DNA of 64,000 nt from an uncultured archaeon (lineage in GTDB: Archaea > Thermoproteota > Nitrososphaeria > Nitrososphaerales > Gagatemarchaeaceae). The position numbers and the translations under genes are program-made. The stretch lies in assembly GCA_963799775.1 (NCBI GenBank), contig CAWCYD010000003.1:1632001-1696000 (forward strand), read 5' to 3'. Of the stretch, positions 34,871 to 40,470 are shown piece by piece (the stretch's first letter is position 1; every line of letters begins with the position of its first letter). Below the pieces are notes generated by a model. That model saw only the letters and a list, made by a program, of their open reading frames with translations, searched no databases and had not been told where the DNA came from.

Positions 34871-35176
34871 TTAAGGCTGACCCAGCGATTTTCGGTTGAC
34901 GCGGCCGCAATTCGCGCAAGTCGTCAGGAGGAACCCCTTGACGACCCGGACCCTGGCGTTGACCCCGGGGACGATGAGCTCCTTGCACCCGTGGCAGTAG
35001 AACTTCTTGAGGTTCCAGCCGAACCTGACGTTGTACTTCAGCATGAGGTCCCTAGCGAGGGAGGCCTGCTGCTTGGCGAGGGGAAGGTCGTCCTTGGCCG
35101 TCGAGGTCGAGAGCTGGATCAGCGCCCTGGCGGCGGTCGCGGCCTGCATCTTGGCTTCACCCTTCTTCTTCCTCAA
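34871..35176 (-). CDS. rnp4: RNase P protein component 4 (Rpp21)
   Basis: 'YCHGC..LIVPGVNARVRV','TCANCG..NR'. Confidence 0.88.
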   Translation of the reverse strand: MRKKKGEAKMQAATAARALIQLSTSTAKDDLPLAKQQASLARDLMLKYNVRFGWNLKKFYCHGCKELIVPGVNARVRVVKGFLLTTCANCGRVNRKSLGQP

Positions 35177-35250
35177 CGGCGGGATGGTCTCACTCGTCGC
35201 TCGCGCAACTGATTTATCGCGAGCCGAAAAGTCTTGCCTGACTTGTCTTC

Positions 35251-35917
35251 ATGCTCCACTTTGTGATTGGGGAAGCGGCGCTCGAGCTGATTCCGGAGGA
35301 GCTCTGGCGGGGCACCCTCGGTCAAGAGCGACGCGGCCCGGCGCGACCTCAGGCCCGGGGACATCCTACTTGACAGGAGCACCCACCACTCCGCAATGCT
35401 CAAGCTTCAAGACGGGTATCGACGGGGAAGGCCAGACCTCGTCCACCTGACTCTGCTCAGCGTGACTAGCACACCCCTTCACCAGGAAGGCAAGGCCCGG
35501 GTCTACATCCAGACGATCGACGGGAATTCTCTTGAGTTCGGCGAAGGGGCGCGCCCACCCAAGAGCTACGCGAGGTTTAGGAATCTCATGGAGAAGTTGC
35601 TTGCAGAGAAGCCTGAAGAGGGCCTCGTGAGGGTGAGCGAAGAGACACTCCCGGAGCTCCTGAGAAGGATAGGGACAGACGACGCCGTGGGACTGTCAGT
35701 TCAAGGTGCCTCCATGCCTCTCGAGTCTCTCGCAGGCGACCTTGTGCAAAGAAAGAACCCTGCTGTCGTGGTGGGAGGGTTCCCAAGGGGGCATTTTCTC
35801 ACGGGCGACCTGAAGGCCTTCGACAGGCTGGTGAGGATCGACCAGCGGGCGCTCGACGCGCATGTCGTGGCGGCACGGGTGGTCTACGAATTCGAGAAGG
35901 CTCTCCGCTCGAAGTGA
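35251..35917 (+). CDS. nep1: 16S rRNA pseudouridine N1-methyltransferase Nep1 (frameshift ~35310)
   Basis: 'EAALELIP','LLDRS.HHSAM','RRGRPDLVH','VGGFPRG.F'. Confidence 0.92.
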
Positions 35918-35922
35918 TTACT

Positions 35923-35928
35923 AAAAAA
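35923..35928 (-). terminator. T6 terminator candidate for the tnpB/omega-RNA transcript
   Basis: AAAAAA on + strand = TTTTTT on - strand, ~60 nt past the putative guide. Confidence 0.45.
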
Positions 35929-35954
35929 GGGGGATATTCGGGGTCAGTGCTCGC

Positions 35955-36006
35955 GCGGTCGTCACGCTAAATCCCCTTGGAGGGGAGACGGTCTAGGACT
36001 TCAGCC
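35955..36006 (+). pseudogene. Degenerate intron-less 5' half of tRNA-Gly (its antisense is the putative TnpB guide)
   Basis: GCGGTCGTC (35955-35963) = tRNA nt 1-9; GGTCTAGGACTTCAGCC (35990-36006) = spliced D-loop to C32; 26-nt hairpin-containing segment between. Confidence 0.75.
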
Positions 36007-38508
36007 GTTTCTAAGACACGTGCCGCCACTGTCTCATTCGTTGCATTAGCACCATGTTCAGTCCGACCTGCTCCACTGACGTCAGGCTTGTCAGAGGAAT
36101 ACAGGTATTCATTCCTCAAATGGTGCCAAGAGGCATCCGCACTCACGGCAAACGGATGGCCGCAAAGGCGCAGTCCACGGCAGAGGATTGCCAGAGAAGC
36201 AAGCCTGTCTCTGTCGTAGTCTACACCGCATTTGACGCACCTGCTCACAGCCCAAGTTGGGTGCTCTAATTTGCCACCGCAGACGGGACATTCGGATGAA
36301 GTCCCTCTTGGGTTCACGTAAAGGGTGCGATTTTGAGATTTGTAATCAATCATAGATTGGTAGAGTCGGTATGGCCACCGATTGAGATAGGTCCTCAACC
36401 GCTTGCCCTTCGGTTCTTCGTCGCTCCTTATCCCTTTGAGATTCTCGAAAATGAAAGACGCGCCGGAATAGGTTCTGACCATCTTGGTTGATAGCTTGTG
36501 AAGTGTATCTTTGATTCTCCCATGTCGTCGTGTTCTGCATATTTATGCTGGACGGAAGGGCATTCTCCCATTCGCTCTCTTTGGAGCATTGTGGCTTTCG
36601 CGGTAGCCTGTGGCCCAACCTGTTCCACGCGCTCTGAGGCGCAAGAACCTAACGGGCTCTAGCTCTTTTTGCTCAGCCGTCCAGCCTGAAGGTCTGTTCC
36701 TCCTTCAGCATGATGTACATGGCCCGCATGAGCTTCCTCGCTGCGGCCACGATCGCCACCTTCTCGCCCCTCCTCTTCGCGAGCTCCACGTAGAATTTCG
36801 TTATCGAGGAGTCGCACCACCTCACGTGGACGCGCGTGCACTGGACCATTATCCAGTTCAGCATCACGCTCCTCGTCCTGTTGGGTGTCGAGTGGCTCTT
36901 GTCCGCCGACTGTCTCAACCCTGGCACGAGGCCTGCGTACGAGCAGAGGTGCTCGTGGTCGGCGAATCTGTTCACGTCTGCGATCTCGCTCGATATCAGG
37001 AGGGCCGAGTAGTGGGAGACGCCGGGTATCGTGACGAGGAGCTTCGCATACTTGTCCTGCAGGGCGACCCCCTTCACCTTCAGGTCGAGCTCCCCGATCT
37101 TCCCGTCCAGGAACTCGATGGTGTCCATGTAGTCGTCCACCGCGTCGATGTGGAGGGACCATCAGGAACTTCCTCCCTTCCCGCGTGAAGACGTCGCCCT
37201 CGTGCTTCACCCATCGCTTCGCGAGCTCCGCCTTCACCTTGCTCTTGAACCCGGTGCGCGTCTCGACGAGGTGATGCCTCCTCCTGACGAGGTCCCTGAC
37301 CTCCCTGGTCTTCTCGTCCGGCACGTAGGACTCGGGTATCATGTCCGCCCTCAGCAGGTCCACCAGCGTCCTCGCGTCGACCTTGTCCGTCTTCACCTTT
37401 GCGTAGGCGATGGCCTTCACCATCAGCGGATGCGCGACCTTCACGTCGTATCCCTTCTCCTTCAGCACGTCGCGGATGTGCTGATGGTTGTACCCGGACT
37501 CCATGACGACGCTCGCATTTGTGCCGTCGAGGAATTCCAGTATCTTTTCTTCGTCCTTCGCCACCTTCGACTCCCTCATCACCTTTCCAGCGTCGTCCTT
37601 GAGGACGCACTGTATCGATTTCTCGTGCAGGTCTAGCGCGGCATACATGCTAGTGGCTGTGGCTTTCCTTCGCCTTATCTTCTGCGAGCATCCCACCTGT
37701 TCATTTGTCTACCTCTCGTCTGCCTAAGCTTCTTCTCCCTCTTTTGCCGGTTGTTGACATGAAGCTGAATCGCCCTTCTCCTTCTTGAGAAGTCGTTCTG
37801 GATTCGGACAATGGTCGCAATTGTCTTTGTGTTGACCTGTTCTAGCTTCGTCCCGTCAGTTTCCAACCGCGCCACAGTCGAGTCTACTGTTGCGAAATTC
37901 AAGTCTGAAGCAACTAACTCTAGCCCGAGAGCCTTGTTCGCGATGCCAACCGCAAAAGTCAGACAGACTTTGCGATCGGTAATTAGAAGTTCAGCAGGTC
38001 GGCCTGATGAATATCCCAAGAAGTGCTTGTTCTTGGTGTTCATTGCAATCCAAGTGTACTTCTTAGGTTGAAGAGTCACTCTGACTCGGCTATCGACAAC
38101 CTTCATCAGTTCTCCATCAATTCTCATTGCAAGCTTCTTCACTTCAGGGATTCTTACTTCCCCGTGGTTGTTCTTTCTATGTGACCTTAGTATTGCCACT
38201 GCAGCTCTGCAAACTGGGTTGATGTGGTGCCTCGCATAGTCATACTTTGTGTAGAACCAGCCCTTTATCTCCCTCCTTAACTGAATAGGCGACGGCATTC
38301 TGCCTTCTCGAATCGCGTATCTAGATGCCTCGACTAGCGAGTACTTGATTGCCTCCTGCATATCTCTGAGATAGGCGAGCAGAAGATCGTCGGGTTCGTA
38401 ATACCAGGAGATTGTTCTCTTTTCTCCGCTAGATTTCCAGGGGTGTATTTGTATTAACCTCCGTCGATGCTTTCTAACAGGCTCAGGCCCTATAAGCACC
38501 CATTTCAT
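35967..38508 (-). CDS. tnpB: TnpB (IS200/IS605, Cas12f-like RNA-guided nuclease) interrupted by IS110 at 36517/37698
   Basis: RuvC-I 'VASDLNF', RuvC-II 'FIFENLKGIR', 'VNPRGTSSECPVCG...CVKCG', RuvC-III 'DRDRLASLAI'; halves rejoin in frame as RQMNR-IKDTLHKLS after removing the IS. Confidence 0.92.
35990..36170 (-). ncRNA. Putative omega RNA (reRNA) of TnpB with 3' guide
   Basis: Overlaps tnpB 3' end; terminal hairpin GAGACA-GTG-GCGG-CAC-G-TGTCTT then AGAAAC, then guide GGCTGAAGTCCTAGACC; 5' boundary is a guess. Confidence 0.6.
36545..36665 (-). ncRNA. Putative bridge/seek RNA of the IS110 element
   Basis: Two parallel internal loops: GGTT-CT-T-GCGC-CTCAGA-GCGC-G-TGGAACAG (matches target) and CCAC-AA-T-GCTC-CAAAGA-GAGC-G-AATGGGAG (matches donor junction). 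Confidence 0.8.
36673..37648 (-). CDS. IS110-family DEDD recombinase (frameshift ~37160)
   Basis: 'ALDLHEK','VVMESG','KTDKVDA' DEDD RuvC; 'TIPGV','SYAGLVP..RQSA' Tnp domain with catalytic Ser; 'VAAARKL'. Confidence 0.93.
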
Positions 38509-38591
38509 GCCATGGGTTACTTTCGTGGCATTGTGGAGGATTGTTACCCGCCCAAACCCTCAATATCCCGAATAATTCCCCCTCTCATCGT

Positions 38592-38687
38592 GCGGTCGTC
38601 GTCCAGTCTGGTCTAACGTCTATAGACGTGCCAAAAGGACTTCAGCCCTCCAAGCTGGCAACCAGGGTTCAAATCCCTGCGACCGCA
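38592..38687 (+). tRNA. tRNA-Gly(TCC) with 21-nt D-loop intron (38615-38635)
   Basis: Acceptor GCGGTCG/CGACCGC, D-stem GTCC/GGAC, anticodon arm TCAGC-CCTCCAA-GCTGG, T-arm CAGGG-TTCAAAT-CCCTG; BHB: TGGT/GCCA helix with CTA and AAA bulges. Confidence 0.88.
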
Positions 38688-38793
38688 CACTTACGATTAG
38701 AACCCTTGGCGTCCAAATCGCTCGAAGCGGTAAGAAGACGATTTGCTGTTGCGAGTCTCTAAAATAGCCCCTGTGCCCTAATGAAATTGGGCC

Positions 38794-40470
38794 GTGGTAA
38801 GGCAGAGATGGCTCGCATTCGCGACTGTTATCGTCGCAGCACTAATCCTAGGAGTCGCTCTTGAAATCATCAATCCACCGCCTAGTCATCAAACCGGCAG
38901 CAGTTCGATCTCCAGCATAGCCACGGCGAACTTGATTCCTACCTCGACTACATCCTCAATTCAATCTTCTTCTTCGGCGACGAGGCCCAACGTGAACTCT
39001 GCAACAACCAGCACGACCGAAACGACCTCCGCAACTCCGCCCTTGTGGACCTACTCGAGCAATGGAACGATCAACTCAATCTCTATGAGTGGCAAAGGCG
39101 AGTACACTGCAGTGGGAGTAGGTTATGGGGAGACCGGTGGAGCGGTCCTCCTTTTCGATAGGGGCGGCGACCTCCTCTGGCAGTATCAAACCGACATGAT
39201 AATTACGCATGTCGCAATTTCGGACAACGGCTCCCATATCGTGGCGACTGGGTTCCAATACCCGCCTACCCTTCCGAGCATCCTGTCCAAGGCCGCAACA
39301 GCGATCTACGCGCTCGACTCGGACGGAAGCGTAGCTTGGACTCGAACTGCATCTAGTGCGCGAGACCTCTCTTTCGAGGGGGCAATATCCTCGGATGGGC
39401 TCCTAGTGGCAGTTGCCAGTCCCGATGCTTCCCTTGCTGTGTTGGATTGGCAAGGTCAGGTACTCTGGAATGACTCTGCCCCCGTTGCGAATGCTCCAGT
39501 GGTTTTTCAGAACGGAAGCCTCTTCGTCGACGGCACCAATGGGACTTCGGTCTTCGGGCCTAGCGGTAATTTATTGTGGACGGACAACGGAGCGAATAAC
39601 GTCTGGTCGGGTGGTGTTGCGATAACGCCAACTGGATACTTGGTGGCGACGTCTTACGATGCTGGGGACAACAATCCGGGTATGATCATGCTTCTCTCAG
39701 GTAATGGTACCCTCTTGTGGGAACATACCGACGAGAGCGGGGCTTACTCTGCAGCAGTGCTTCCGGATGGGTCTTCCGTCGCTTTTACAGCCGCCGAGGG
39801 GCGAGTTCTGTTTTTCAGCCGGAATGGGACTCTCCTTGGCGATCTCACTACCCCTTCTGATTATCCGAGTGTTTTTCCAGCTCCGAAGGACAGCTTCCTC
39901 GTCGGCGGTGGACACAGCAGCGGACTGTGGCTCTTCAATTCCACTGGGGGGCAAACGTGGAGCTATCCTCTGAAGGATGTCGGCACGGTATCGATTTCGA
40001 GTGACGCCAATTTTGCGGCCGCGTCGAACGGCACTGGCGCGCTCGCTCTAGAACGCCAAAAGGCTCCTCTGAGCACCCTTTACTTCTTCAGTATGTCGAT
40101 GGCAACGGTGATGAATCCATTACACAAGGTGACTTTCCAGCAGGTAAGGTATTGCAACCAATACAACATCCTACCTTGGGCAGTAACGCTCGAGGGGATT
40201 ACCCAAGTCCAACCGCATAATCAGACCCTCCCGCTTCCGTCTAATACATTCTCCACCGTGGTTCCGGACCAGAACCTAACGCGCATTAACTTCGATGTCC
40301 TTTCTGGGACTTACAACTACACGATCATCGGTGGGGCACCTCCGGGTGGCGAGCTTTACGTGGGCAACGGGTACCAGAGTGGAACAGTTATCGTGAATGG
40401 CTCTGATGTTACCGTGAGCGTTGGGGTACAGCTCAGCTTCACGTGCACCTCATCAACCAAAGCTCCGTAA
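38794..40470 (+). CDS. Secreted PQQ/WD40-like beta-propeller surface protein with C-terminal beta-sandwich
   Basis: TM + S/T linker; repeated 'G.LLW' and 'AIS.DG' blade motifs; C-terminal 'GTYNY...GTVIVNGSDVTV'. Confidence 0.85.
   Translation: MVRQRWLAFATVIVAALILGVALEIINPPPSHQTGSSSISSIATANLIPTSTTSSIQSSSSATRPNVNSATTSTTETTSATPPLWTYSSNGTINSISMSGKGEYTAVGVGYGETGGAVLLFDRGGDLLWQYQTDMIITHVAISDNGSHIVATGFQYPPTLPSILSKAATAIYALDSDGSVAWTRTASSARDLSFEGAISSDGLLVAVASPDASLAVLDWQGQVLWNDSAPVANAPVVFQNGSLFVDGTNGTSVFGPSGNLLWTDNGANNVWSGGVAITPTGYLVATSYDAGDNNPGMIMLLSGNGTLLWEHTDESGAYSAAVLPDGSSVAFTAAEGRVLFFSRNGTLLGDLTTPSDYPSVFPAPKDSFLVGGGHSSGLWLFNSTGGQTWSYPLKDVGTVSISSDANFAAASNGTGALALERQKAPLSTLYFFSMSMATVMNPLHKVTFQQVRYCNQYNILPWAVTLEGITQVQPHNQTLPLPSNTFSTVVPDQNLTRINFDVLSGTYNYTIIGGAPPGGELYVGNGYQSGTVIVNGSDVTVSVGVQLSFTCTSSTKAP

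What the first reader, a model, noticed from the sequence alone, without database searches (positions are those of the whole stretch)
35955..38687. TnpB whose guide matches the spliced (intron-less) form of the adjacent tRNA-Gly: candidate tRNA-homing / intron-immunity system
SEEN: on the tnpB strand, directly after a terminal hairpin and AGAAAC, the sequence is GGCTGAAGTCCTAGACC. Its + strand form GGTCTAGGACTTCAGCC (35990-36006) equals tRNA-Gly 38610-38614 joined to 38636-38647, i.e. 17/17 across the exon junction. tRNA nt 1-9 also recur at 35955-35963. The genomic tRNA is interrupted inside this match by a 21-nt BHB intron. Chance for a given 17-mer in 128 kb is about 1e-5. All three RuvC acidic residues are present. 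KNOWN: TnpB guides come from the DNA just 3' of the element's right end and direct cleavage of element-free alleles. INFERENCE: the element sits in a tRNA-Gly locus, uses the displaced intron-less 5' half as guide, and supplies a replacement promoter plus intron-bearing 5' half that cannot be cut. It would cleave intron-less tRNA-Gly alleles (a gene drive spreading tnpB and the intron) or tRNA-derived attP sites of viruses, which would explain non-canonical tRNA intron gain. The TAM would be the antisense anticodon loop (TTGGAA for a normal loop). I know of no description of such a system.
Basis: partly seen in the sequence, partly recalled or inferred. Interest (0 to 1): 0.95.

Follow-up and report, generated by a model that had tools for sequence, protein, structure and literature searches.

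The report
RNA-guided transposon carrying tRNA rescue half
A small transposon that encodes an RNA-guided nuclease sits inside an archaeal glycine tRNA gene and keeps the gene working with its own intron-bearing replacement half; its guide matches only tRNA copies that lack that intron, so it looks like a natural 'cut the rival allele, carry the cure' selfish element, though its nuclease gene has since been broken by a second transposon.

Summary
The 17-mer at 35990-36006 equals the spliced junction of the tRNA-Gly(UCC) at 38592-38687 and is unique in the 2.47-Mb genome.

Comparison with relatives fixes the anatomy:
- 35955-36006 is the native 5' part of the tRNA, with its native promoter behind Nep1.
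- 36007-38556 is a TnpA-less IS607-type TnpB element. Its right end stops at the family-wide ...AGAAACGG, directly against the displaced tRNA piece.
- 38557-38647 is an imported promoter plus 5' half. Its 21-nt bulge-helix-bulge intron is homologous to one native in a sister genus.

The predicted guide (CTGAAGTCCTAGACC) lies next to GAGGG on the antisense anticodon loop. GAGGG is a TAM reported for IS607 TnpBs. Six of 22 genus relatives carry this intact target. The window's own tRNA matches the guide for only 10 nt before the intron interrupts it.

Two further independent cases exist in the same TnpB family. One is the initiator tRNA-Met. The other is a TBP gene end recoded by 12 changes, all synonymous.

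Cautions: tnpB here is split by an IS110 copy, nothing shows cleavage or spread, and only 3 events were found among 91 evaluable loci. The same architecture was described in 2012 for Caldiarchaeum without any TnpB link. Verdict: a new variant of a known kind; the mechanism is inferred.

The parts
35396..35917 (+). Nep1/EMG1 methyltransferase gene, the native upstream neighbour of tRNA-Gly
   Evidence: Pfam PF03587, 4.3e-31. The same Rpr2-Nep1-tRNA-Gly order is seen in G011, G017, G020 and G023.
35919..35954 (+). Native tRNA-Gly promoter and leader (...AAAAAAGGGGGATATTCGGGGTCAGTGCTCGC)
   Evidence: It aligns with the leaders of same-genus G011 and G017 directly upstream of their tRNA-Gly.
35955..36006 (+). 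Displaced native 5' part of tRNA-Gly. 35955-35963 is tRNA nt 1-9. 35964-35989 is the decayed remnant of the genus-type D-loop intron; the exon letters GTCCAG..TCT are lost. 35990-36006 is the 17-mer.
35990..36004 (-). Predicted omega-RNA guide CTGAAGTCCTAGACC (15 nt); 36005-36006 is the GG core
   Evidence: The family right end stops at ...ACGG in 40 of 42 homologous loci that were aligned by protein coordinate. Among 96 distinct right ends, the commonest letter holds 0.97-1.0 of the sequences at positions -5 to -1 and 0.5 or less from +1 on (anchored on the motif).
35974..35986 (-). Hairpin CCCCUCCAAGGGG followed by AUUU just after the guide; possible omega-RNA 3' end
   Evidence: Read directly from the sequence; untested.
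36007..36230 (-). Right end and omega-RNA scaffold, overlapping the 3' end of tnpB; terminal hairpin plus AGAAACGG
   Evidence: No Rfam omega-RNA family matched.
35967..36513 (-). tnpB C-terminal part (RuvC E and D, zinc-finger TNB domain); the frame runs through the right end into the flank
   Evidence: Pfam PF07282, 1.7e-10; translation.
36514..37702 (-). IS110-family insertion that splits tnpB; it carries a private 1-nt insertion at 37161 that frameshifts its own transposase
   Evidence: Pfam PF01548 2e-19 and PF02371 1.1e-16. Two other copies about 99.7% identical are in the genome. The 1-nt insertion is shown.
37703..38508 (-). tnpB N-terminal part (RuvC D in DLNF)
   Evidence: 241 homologues at E<=1e-10, the best 64-65% identical. 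With the IS110 copy removed in silico the frame is open for about 450 aa.
38445..38556 (-). Left end of the IS607-type element, with a TATA-like GCTTATAG upstream of tnpB
   Evidence: MAFFT alignment of 14 left ends: similarity begins at GGG|TT, and the flanks upstream of that are unrelated.
38557..38561 (-). GAGGG at the left-end flank (TAM-like insertion motif of the element proper)
   Evidence: review passage.
38557..38647 (+). Imported 'rescue' segment: new promoter and leader (38557-38591), tRNA exon 1 (38592-38615), the 21-nt intron, and exon letters up to the CC core (38646-38647)
   Evidence: No same-genus genome matches the promoter or the intron. The intron is 18 of 21 letters identical to the native intron of G108 in sister genus g20.
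38592..38687 (+). Intact tRNA-Gly(UCC) with a 21-nt BHB intron at 21/22 (38616-38636). The mature sequence is identical to that of genus relatives.
38646..38650 (-). GAGGG on the antisense of the anticodon stem and loop (C31 C32 C33 U34 C35): the predicted TAM of the tRNA target
   Evidence: [quoted passage not shown]

Best explanation
What is shown. A TnpA-less IS607-type TnpB element arrived together with an adjacent promoter and 5' half of a tRNA-Gly gene. The joint unit lies at the GG behind a GAGGG motif, at the junction of anticodon stem and loop of the native tRNA-Gly(UCC). The native 5' half was pushed aside to the far side of the element and now lies directly against the right end. 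The imported 5' half joins the native anticodon loop and 3' half, so the cell still has a working tRNA. Its intron is removed by the host splicing endonuclease (inferred from the BHB fold).

What follows from what is known of TnpB. The omega-RNA reads out of the right end, so its guide is the displaced native sequence CTGAAGTCCTAGACC. With GAGGG as TAM, TnpB would cut any tRNA-Gly(UCC) allele in which these letters are contiguous, as in 6 of 22 genus relatives. It would not cut its own host allele, where the 21-nt intron ends the match after 10 letters.

What is inferred. A break in an uninvaded allele, repaired from an invaded one, would copy the cassette and the intron across. That is homing with a built-in rescue. 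It would drive both the element and non-canonical tRNA intron gain.

Present state. In this genome the system is dead, because an IS110 copy split tnpB recently.
For: - 17 of 17 match across the splice junction, unique in the genome.
- The native identity of the 35955-36006 piece rests on synteny and a shared leader.
- Right-end boundary: 40 of 42 protein-anchored loci end ...ACGG and then diverge.
- Left-end boundary at GGG|TT. The 91 nt between the left end and the CC core are therefore cargo, not IS.
- IS607 type: a MerR-HTH plus resolvase TnpA sits upstream in relatives. L029 has PF00239 at 8.4e-19. 31 of 139 loci have a tnpA-like hit.
- GAGGG is a reported IS607 TnpB TAM, and IS607 inserts after GG and ends in CGG (review passages).
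- The target plus TAM is contiguous in 6 of 22 same-genus genomes.
- No self-target in the genome.
- BHB fold of the intron.
- The intron is homologous to one native in sister genus g20: 91% identity over 53 nt to G108.
- tnpB is otherwise intact: open for about 450 aa once IS110 is removed in silico.
- Two more independent cases occur in the same family, and in each the repeat starts exactly at the right-end GG.
  - L045 and L052 hold the sole initiator tRNA-Met of two Thermoplasmata genomes, followed by a spacer, the IS, and a decayed tRNA-Met 3' part. Their TnpB is under purifying selection, dN/dS 0.18.
  - L114 holds an intact TBP gene (PF00352, 1.4e-60), followed by a spacer, the IS, and the displaced last 17 codons. 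These differ at 12 of 55 aligned letters, all synonymous, so the two ends evolved as working genes in different lineages.
- All three cassettes lack TnpA.
Against: - tnpB is split by IS110, so nothing is maintained by selection here now.
- No cleavage, omega-RNA or homing data exist.
- No empty or filled polymorphism was found; contigs of the 4 runs laid do not cover tnpB.
- The right end plus guide junction occurs nowhere else: 0 hits in metagenome contigs.
- The nearest TnpB is only 64-65% identical. No other genome in the genus has a TnpB beside tRNA-Gly.
- Only 4 of 91 evaluable loci, from 3 events, show the architecture, so most family members are ordinary insertions.
- L045 and L052 look vertically inherited, since their locus is syntenic. 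That case shows persistence, not spread.
- The TAM is taken from a review statement about 'most IS607 TnpBs', not measured for this clade.
- The guide match is 15 nt, at the short end of what I recall for TnpB.
- How the cargo first became joined to the IS is unexplained.
Confidence: 0.5

Rival explanations
1. Ordinary IS607 insertion with no drive. The element landed by chance at a GAGGG in a redundant or already displaced tRNA copy. The guide equals the flank simply because every TnpB guide does. The intact tRNA beside it is an unrelated replacement, by gene conversion or transfer from a relative.
For: 88 of 91 evaluable family loci show unrelated flanks. IS607 inserts after G-rich GG motifs anyway. 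The tRNA-Gly introns of this genus turn over at many positions without any IS nearby. tnpB is now dead.
Against: In 3 of 3 independent cases the duplicated gene segment starts exactly at the right-end GG. An intact copy of the same gene lies just beyond the left end. tRNA genes and one gene end are tiny targets. The 12 of 12 synonymous differences in L114 call for two functional orthologous ends brought together.
Confidence: 0.25
2. Relic of a classical integrase-mediated integration (pNOB8 or SSV type) whose attP carried a tRNA-Gly 5' part with an intron, as proposed for Caldiarchaeum. The TnpB element would be a passenger and the rest of the integrated element was deleted.
For: Direct repeats of a tRNA part flank an insertion beside a reconstituted tRNA with an extra intron. 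This is the pattern modelled by Sugahara et al. 2012.
Against: Nothing lies between the repeats except tnpB, its ends and IS110; there is no integrase ORF or fragment. The repeat abuts the family-typical right end to the letter. The same holds in L045, L052 and L114, which also lack an integrase.
Confidence: 0.08
3. Domesticated guide-RNA nuclease used by the host, for example against viruses or plasmids whose attachment sites copy the tRNA-Gly 5' half, or as a regulator.
For: TnpA is absent. The tRNA-Met-linked TnpB of L045 and L052 is under purifying selection, dN/dS 0.18.
Against: The 17-mer occurs in 1 viral contig, inside a coding region with no tRNA context. No TnpB relatives were found in viral contigs. 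The gene is disrupted here. The RuvC residues are intact, so it is not a TldR-like dead repressor.
Confidence: 0.05

Closest known systems
Caldiarchaeum subterraneum tRNA-Thr(GGU) locus (Sugahara et al. 2012, PLoS One, PMC3293823; I read the abstract, Results part 1 and Discussion part 1)
   Same: A 5' tRNA fragment, then a 1.87-kb insertion that ends inside the tRNA, then a tRNA carrying one extra intron (24/25) that came with the insertion. The authors proposed this as a route to tRNA intron gain and as immunity against re-invasion.
   Different: There the insertion was read as a pNOB8-type plasmid remnant with an unidentified 'DNA recombinase' on the tRNA strand; no guide RNA or nuclease was considered. 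Whether that insertion is a TnpB element could not be tested here: the sequence cannot be fetched with these tools and supplements are closed.
IS607-family TnpB 'restorative homing' (review PMC13565253, passages only; primary papers recalled, not read)
   Same: GG termini, a G-rich TAM (GAGGG or AGGAG), a guide taken from the right-end flank, and cutting of the element-free site followed by repair from an element-bearing copy.
   Different: Here there is no TnpA, so there is no excision to repair. The element sits inside an essential gene and brings a replacement gene segment. Self and non-self differ by an intron or by recoding, not by the presence of the transposon alone.
Free-standing homing endonucleases and 'intronless homing' (T4 Seg and Mob; SegB acts in the tRNA gene region; review passages)
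   Same: A nuclease gene sits beside a conserved gene and cuts the rival allele of that gene. Small sequence differences in its own allele give immunity. Flanking markers are co-converted.
   Different: Those nucleases recognise DNA through protein. Here recognition would be by an RNA guide templated by a retained copy of the victim sequence.
Integrative elements that rebuild the tRNA gene they enter (SSV1, pNOB8; as described in Sugahara's Discussion)
   Same: They carry a copy of the displaced tRNA part, so the gene stays whole, and they leave a direct repeat.
   Different: Those use tyrosine integrases and usually replace the 3' part. This one has no integrase, and in the window it replaces the promoter and the 5' half.
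Synthetic home-and-rescue and cleave-and-rescue gene drives (PMC7968924, PMC6442612; search listing and start of abstracts only)
   Same: An RNA-guided nuclease is aimed at an essential gene and is paired with a recoded, uncuttable rescue copy in the same cassette. L114's gene end differs by 12 changes, all synonymous, which is the same design.
   Different: Those are engineered Cas9 constructs in sexual eukaryotes. This is a natural prokaryotic element and is unproven.

Membership tests
TnpB (IS200/IS605/IS607 RNA-guided nuclease) | RuvC catalytic D, E and D, and a zinc-finger (TNB) domain | tested here: met
   D in DLNF is invariant in A1. E in FENL and D in DYDRD are present in the C part. 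PF07282 1.7e-10.
TnpB (IS200/IS605/IS607 RNA-guided nuclease) | Uninterrupted gene | tested here: not met
   Split by an IS110 copy at about 36514-37702. Otherwise open for about 450 aa.
TnpB (IS200/IS605/IS607 RNA-guided nuclease) | Omega-RNA scaffold at the right end, with the guide taken from the flank | tested here: inconclusive
   A conserved right end with terminal hairpin and a sharp boundary is seen. There are no RNA data, and no Rfam family matched.
TnpB (IS200/IS605/IS607 RNA-guided nuclease) | Guide- and TAM-dependent DNA cleavage | not testable with these tools
   Needs biochemistry.
IS607 family element | Serine-recombinase TnpA (MerR HTH plus resolvase) beside tnpB | tested here: not met
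   Absent in the window. Present in relatives: L029; 31 of 139 loci.
IS607 family element | Ends in (C)GG, inserted after a G-rich GG motif, no target duplication | tested here: met
   The right end is ...AAACGG. The left-end flank is ...TGAGGG. Criteria are taken from review passages.
Archaeal tRNA with a bulge-helix-bulge intron | Cloverleaf and correct mature sequence once the insert is removed | tested here: met
   The spliced sequence is identical to the mature tRNA-Gly of G011, G017, G020 and G016; fold.
Archaeal tRNA with a bulge-helix-bulge intron | 4-bp central helix flanked by two 3-nt bulges that hold the splice sites | tested here: met
   UGGU/GCCA helix with CUA and AAA. The second 'bulge' faces 4 unpaired letters, so this is the relaxed form.
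Archaeal tRNA with a bulge-helix-bulge intron | Actual splicing | not testable with these tools
   No RNA holder was listed.
Integrase-type integrative element (pNOB8 or SSV) | Tyrosine integrase gene within or beside the insert | tested here: not met
   Every ORF between the repeats is accounted for by tnpB and IS110.
Integrase-type integrative element (pNOB8 or SSV) | Direct repeat of a tRNA part at both borders | tested here: met
IS110 family (the disrupting insertion) | DEDD transposase N domain plus Transposase_20 C domain; multiple near-identical copies | tested here: met
   two other copies about 99.7% identical.
Home-and-rescue or cleave-and-rescue type selfish element | The rescue copy is not matched by the guide, while the wild-type allele is | tested here: met
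   At sequence level only. Window: a 10-nt match against 15 nt plus TAM in 6 of 22 relatives. L114: 6 wobble mismatches in the first 20 letters.
Home-and-rescue or cleave-and-rescue type selfish element | Biased inheritance or spread | not testable with these tools
   No polymorphism or second occurrence was found.

The most novel reading that the evidence does not exclude
A class of TnpA-less IS607-type TnpB cassettes are natural RNA-guided 'home-and-rescue' elements. They enter highly conserved essential genes (tRNA-Gly, initiator tRNA-Met, TBP). They keep the victim's displaced sequence as the template of their guide. They carry an uncuttable replacement of the displaced gene end, made immune by an intron or by synonymous recoding. 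They spread by cutting uninvaded alleles. In archaea this would be a direct, testable engine for the gain and turnover of non-canonical tRNA introns, and for leftover tRNA fragments and split tRNA genes.
Probability: 0.35. Interest if true: 0.9.

Novelty: new variant of a known kind. Interest (0 to 1): 0.78.

Why it matters
The origin of non-canonical and multiple tRNA introns, and of tRNA fragments, in archaea has been an open question since before 2012. The standing idea is that introns protect tRNA genes from mobile elements, but no nuclease or recognition mechanism has been named. This locus supplies one that can be tested at the bench: a guide, a literature-supported TAM, a susceptible allele present in relatives, and an immune allele that differs only by the intron. 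The TBP case shows the same design with synonymous recoding. That is the logic of engineered rescue drives, and it would be the first natural RNA-guided example. It also offers a reason why TnpB genes persist after losing their transposase.

Tried and rejected
- Rfam scan of 35000-39500 at E<=1: only a weak tRNA hit and no omega-RNA family, so the scaffold is defined by family comparison only.
- Default ARAGORN and ARAGORN with introns on the whole genome: both miss this tRNA.
- The search for related loci with the single protein in genome contigs: 0 relatives. It was repeated with alignment A1.
- Metagenome pattern for right end plus guide: 0 hits.
- Viral 17-mer: 1 hit, inside a coding region. 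I judged it chance, not an attP.
- TnpB relatives in viral contigs: none.
- Exact 9-mer repeat test: too strict; it missed L045. It was replaced by local alignment against shuffled flanks. In one search the two top scores (L082, L058) were artefacts of a negative slice index and were dropped.
- L113 (z 4.2) and L134 (z 3.0): inspected and rejected as chance.
- L107 has tRNA-Thr and other tRNAs near both ends, but its right-end flank is not tRNA. It was not counted.
- Of 139 loci, 48 could not be evaluated: 19 had no right-end motif, 15 lacked an N or C match, 13 had too short an upstream stretch, and 1 had too short a flank. Several loci of the two collections are the same record twice (for example L056 and L154, L035 and L112), so 91 overstates independence.
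- The 14 other, distant TnpB loci of G000 showed no flank repeat of 13 letters or more of note.
- L045 against L052: at first the block looked transposed, because the flanks did not align. The 20-kb comparison shows the locus is syntenic, so I read it as one inherited event.
- Sequencing runs: no RNA holder was listed.
- Contigs of X1, X2, X3 and X5 cover Nep1, the native fragment up to 35999, IS110 and the tRNA, but not tnpB. The one joint (35596 to 38588, side 24) has too short a side and fits a relative's Nep1-tRNA locus. There is no verdict on empty alleles.
- The family-wide protein search gave nothing closer than 62% identity, and its loci showed no repeats.
- Supplements are closed. Sugahara's Table S1 and Figures S1-S2 might identify their 'a' and 'b' regions, but I could not see them.
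- 'Not in print': my four searches found no paper that links a TnpB guide to a tRNA or gene-end rescue copy. This holds for that library only.
- Karvelis 2021, Altae-Tran 2021, Meers 2023 and Randau & Soll 2008 are recalled, not read.


Full report
THE OBSERVATION

The 17 letters at 35990-36006 are identical to 38610-38614 joined to 38636-38647, and they occur once in the 2,470,806-base genome. The first nine tRNA letters recur at 35955-35963.

The tRNA runs from 38592 to 38687. With the 21-nt insert removed it is identical to the mature tRNA-Gly(UCC) of genus relatives. The precursor folds as a cloverleaf. In it the insert forms a 5-bp hairpin, a 3-nt bulge (CUA), a 4-bp helix (UGGU/GCCA) and a 3-nt stretch (AAA) next to the D stem. 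This is a relaxed bulge-helix-bulge (MFE -38.7 kcal/mol, z -4.85, 0 of 200 shuffles as good). Standard finders miss the gene.

tnpB is in two pieces, 38508-37703 and 36513-35967. A 1.19-kb IS110-family element lies between them (Pfam). That element has two other copies in the genome, about 99.7% identical. With it removed in silico the frame is open for about 450 aa and aligns through the junction with a homologue. The break is therefore recent, and it is the only break.

WHICH tRNA HALF IS NATIVE

In same-genus genomes G011 and G017 the order is Rpr2, Nep1, then tRNA-Gly, and the leader ends ...GGTGCTCGC. The window has the same genes and the same leader in front of 35955. The fragment at 35955-36006 is therefore the original 5' part at its original place.

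Relatives G011, G017, G020 and G016 carry a 33-42-nt intron in the D loop. The window's fragment keeps only a decayed remnant of that region and has lost nine exon letters.

The working tRNA has a different promoter and an intron at 21/22. Neither is found in any of the 22 other genomes of the genus. The intron has a close relative in sister genus g20. G108 is 91% identical over 53 nt, with 18 of 21 intron letters the same. There it sits in the native Nep1-tRNA-Gly context without any TnpB. G218, G226, G170 and G358 also have introns at 21/22. The element did not create the intron. It imported a 5' half that already had one.

WHERE THE ELEMENT ENDS

The TnpB has 241 homologues at E<=1e-10, the best 64-65% identical, mostly from Nitrososphaerota records. 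I fetched 55 loci from genomes and 80 from metagenomes.

Right end. Aligned by protein coordinate, 40 of 42 loci end in ...(A/G)GAAACGG or a close variant and then diverge. Among 96 distinct right ends, the commonest letter holds 0.97-1.0 of the sequences at positions -5 to -1 and 0.5 or less from +1 on (this count is anchored on the motif). The window reads ...CUUAGAAACGG followed by CTGAAGTCCTAGACC.

Left end. Similarity among 14 left ends starts at GGG|TT, and everything upstream of that is unrelated. The window's left end starts at 38556 behind ...TTGAGGG.

Type. Many relatives have a MerR-HTH plus resolvase TnpA upstream (L029; 31 of 139 loci). This is an IS607-type family, and the window's copy has no TnpA.

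Consequence. The 91 nt from 38557 to 38647 hold the promoter, exon 1, the intron and eleven exon letters. They lie outside the IS proper, yet they came with it.

TARGET LOGIC

A 2026 review (PMC13565253; passages only) makes three statements. IS607 elements insert at or after GG. They end in GG. [quoted passage not shown]

On the antisense strand of the tRNA, GAGGG (38650-38646) lies directly 5' of CTGAAG... A contiguous tRNA-Gly(UCC) therefore offers the TAM plus 15 guide letters. Exactly this 21-letter stretch is present in 6 of 22 other genomes of the genus. Other members are interrupted at 19/20 (G006, G013, G018) or 22/23 (G008), or differ in the stem (G004, G007).

In the window's own tRNA the match stops after 10 letters, at the intron. 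No place in the genome has GG plus 11 or more guide letters except the guide template itself. That template is preceded by ACGG, not a TAM.

RECURRENCE

I compared the first 60 nt beyond each right end with everything upstream of tnpB, against shuffled flanks. Of 139 loci, 91 could be evaluated. Three stand far out: L114 (z 19.8), L045 (z 11.6) and L052 (z 10.3). The window is a fourth, but it is seen only as a split match.

L045 and L052 are two Thermoplasmata genomes. Each has its only initiator tRNA-Met, then about 230 nt, then a TnpA-less element, then a decayed copy of the tRNA-Met 3' part that starts at the right-end GG. The locus is syntenic in the two genomes, so I read this as one old event. 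TnpB has stayed open under purifying selection: dN/dS 0.18, dS 0.25.

L114 is a metagenome contig. It has an intact TBP gene (PF00352, 1.4e-60), then about 125 nt, then an intact 459-aa TnpB, then again from the right-end GG a second copy of the last 17 TBP codons, encoding the same AVNNLHVTLEEKNLMVY. The two copies differ at 12 of 55 aligned letters, all synonymous. Neutral decay would not give 12 of 12 synonymous changes. Two functional orthologous gene ends were brought together, and the working one mismatches the guide at wobble positions.

In 3 of 3 independent events the repeat begins exactly at the right-end core, and an intact, guide-mismatched copy of the same essential gene lies beyond the left end.

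MECHANISM: WHAT IS SHOWN AND WHAT IS INFERRED

Shown:
- the anatomy;
- which half is native and which is imported;
- the element boundaries;
- sequence-level immunity of the host allele and susceptibility of relatives' alleles;
- recurrence of the design.

Inferred from what is known of TnpB:
- the omega-RNA carries the flank as its guide;
- GAGGG serves as TAM;
- a cut in an uninvaded allele would be repaired from an invaded one, copying cassette and intron.

Not resolved: how the cargo first became attached. I considered three routes.
- Serine-recombinase excision that used a GG inside the neighbouring gene instead of the true left end, which gives a circle that re-inserts at the same GG.
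- Campbell-type recombination of such a circle through the gene homology.
- Recombination between an in-gene copy and a copy downstream of a resistant allele.
None can be told apart with these data.

AGAINST THE STRONG READING

- The nuclease gene is dead here.
- The junction of right end and guide is found nowhere else.
- No close relative of this TnpB exists in the collections.
- No polymorphism was seen.
- Most family members are plain insertions.
- The tRNA-Met case shows persistence rather than spread.

WHAT IS KNOWN

Sugahara et al. 2012 described the same architecture for tRNA-Thr in Caldiarchaeum. They proposed that the extra intron came with an integrating element and could block re-invasion, but they assumed a pNOB8-type integrase. 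The review treats TnpB restorative homing, intronless homing by free-standing endonucleases (including SegB in the T4 tRNA region) and gene drives. Engineered home-and-rescue drives use the same nuclease-plus-recoded-rescue design (listing and abstract starts only). My four literature searches found no paper that joins these for TnpB.

VERDICT

- It is a new variant of a known kind.
- Confidence in the homing-with-rescue mechanism is about one half.
- Interest is high because the proposal is directly testable.

Noticed in passing
window 37161 (inside the IS110 copy at 36514-37702): This IS110 copy has one extra A. It is absent from the two other genome copies and from contigs of all 4 runs laid. 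It frameshifts the transposase, which is why the DEDD and C-terminal domains sit in two ORFs. It is either a private mutation or an assembly error.
   Followed up: yes
window 38647-38653; loci L010-L014, L022, L026-L028, L172-L179: The anticodon loop of tRNA-Gly(UCC) reads CCUCCAA in every same-family sequence I looked at. Position 33 is therefore C rather than the usual U. That C is what makes the antisense read GAGGG. Three more distant genomes of the order (G031, G033, G026) have U33.
   Followed up: partly
L010-L013, L019, L022, L026-L028 (same genus); L172-L178 (same family): The intron position in this one tRNA varies widely among close relatives: 15/16, 19/20, 21/22, 22/23, 37/38 and 45/46. 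G008 has up to three introns. This is unusually fast turnover and fits a conflict over this target.
   Followed up: partly
L045 1128-3190 and L052 1072-3130: A TnpA-less TnpB lies beside the only initiator tRNA-Met of two Thermoplasmata genomes. It has been kept under purifying selection (dN/dS 0.18) since the two split. Its function there is unknown.
   Followed up: partly
window 35974-35986 (minus strand): The hairpin CCCCUCCAAGGGG followed by AUUU lies directly after the 15-nt guide, where the native D-loop intron used to be. It could define the 3' end of the omega-RNA.
   Followed up: no
G000 contig C2, 227671-228028: Two tandem partial copies of about 180 nt of the IS110 left end lie next to a full IS110 copy.
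   Followed up: no
window 35927-35943 and 38566-38584: The native and the imported tRNA promoters share a 14-16-nt stretch in inverted orientation (GGGGGATATTCGGG against CCCGAATAATTCCCCC). This is probably TATA-box palindromy.
   Followed up: no
right-end flanks of 96 distinct family loci: The first two letters beyond the right-end GG are T in 47% and 50% of loci, and left ends also begin with TT. This hints at a GG|TT preference of the recombinase.
   Followed up: no
L107 650-3000: A family member in a metagenome contig sits between tRNA-Thr genes and another intron-bearing tRNA, but its right-end flank is not tRNA. Elements of this family may tend to sit near tRNA genes.
   Followed up: partly
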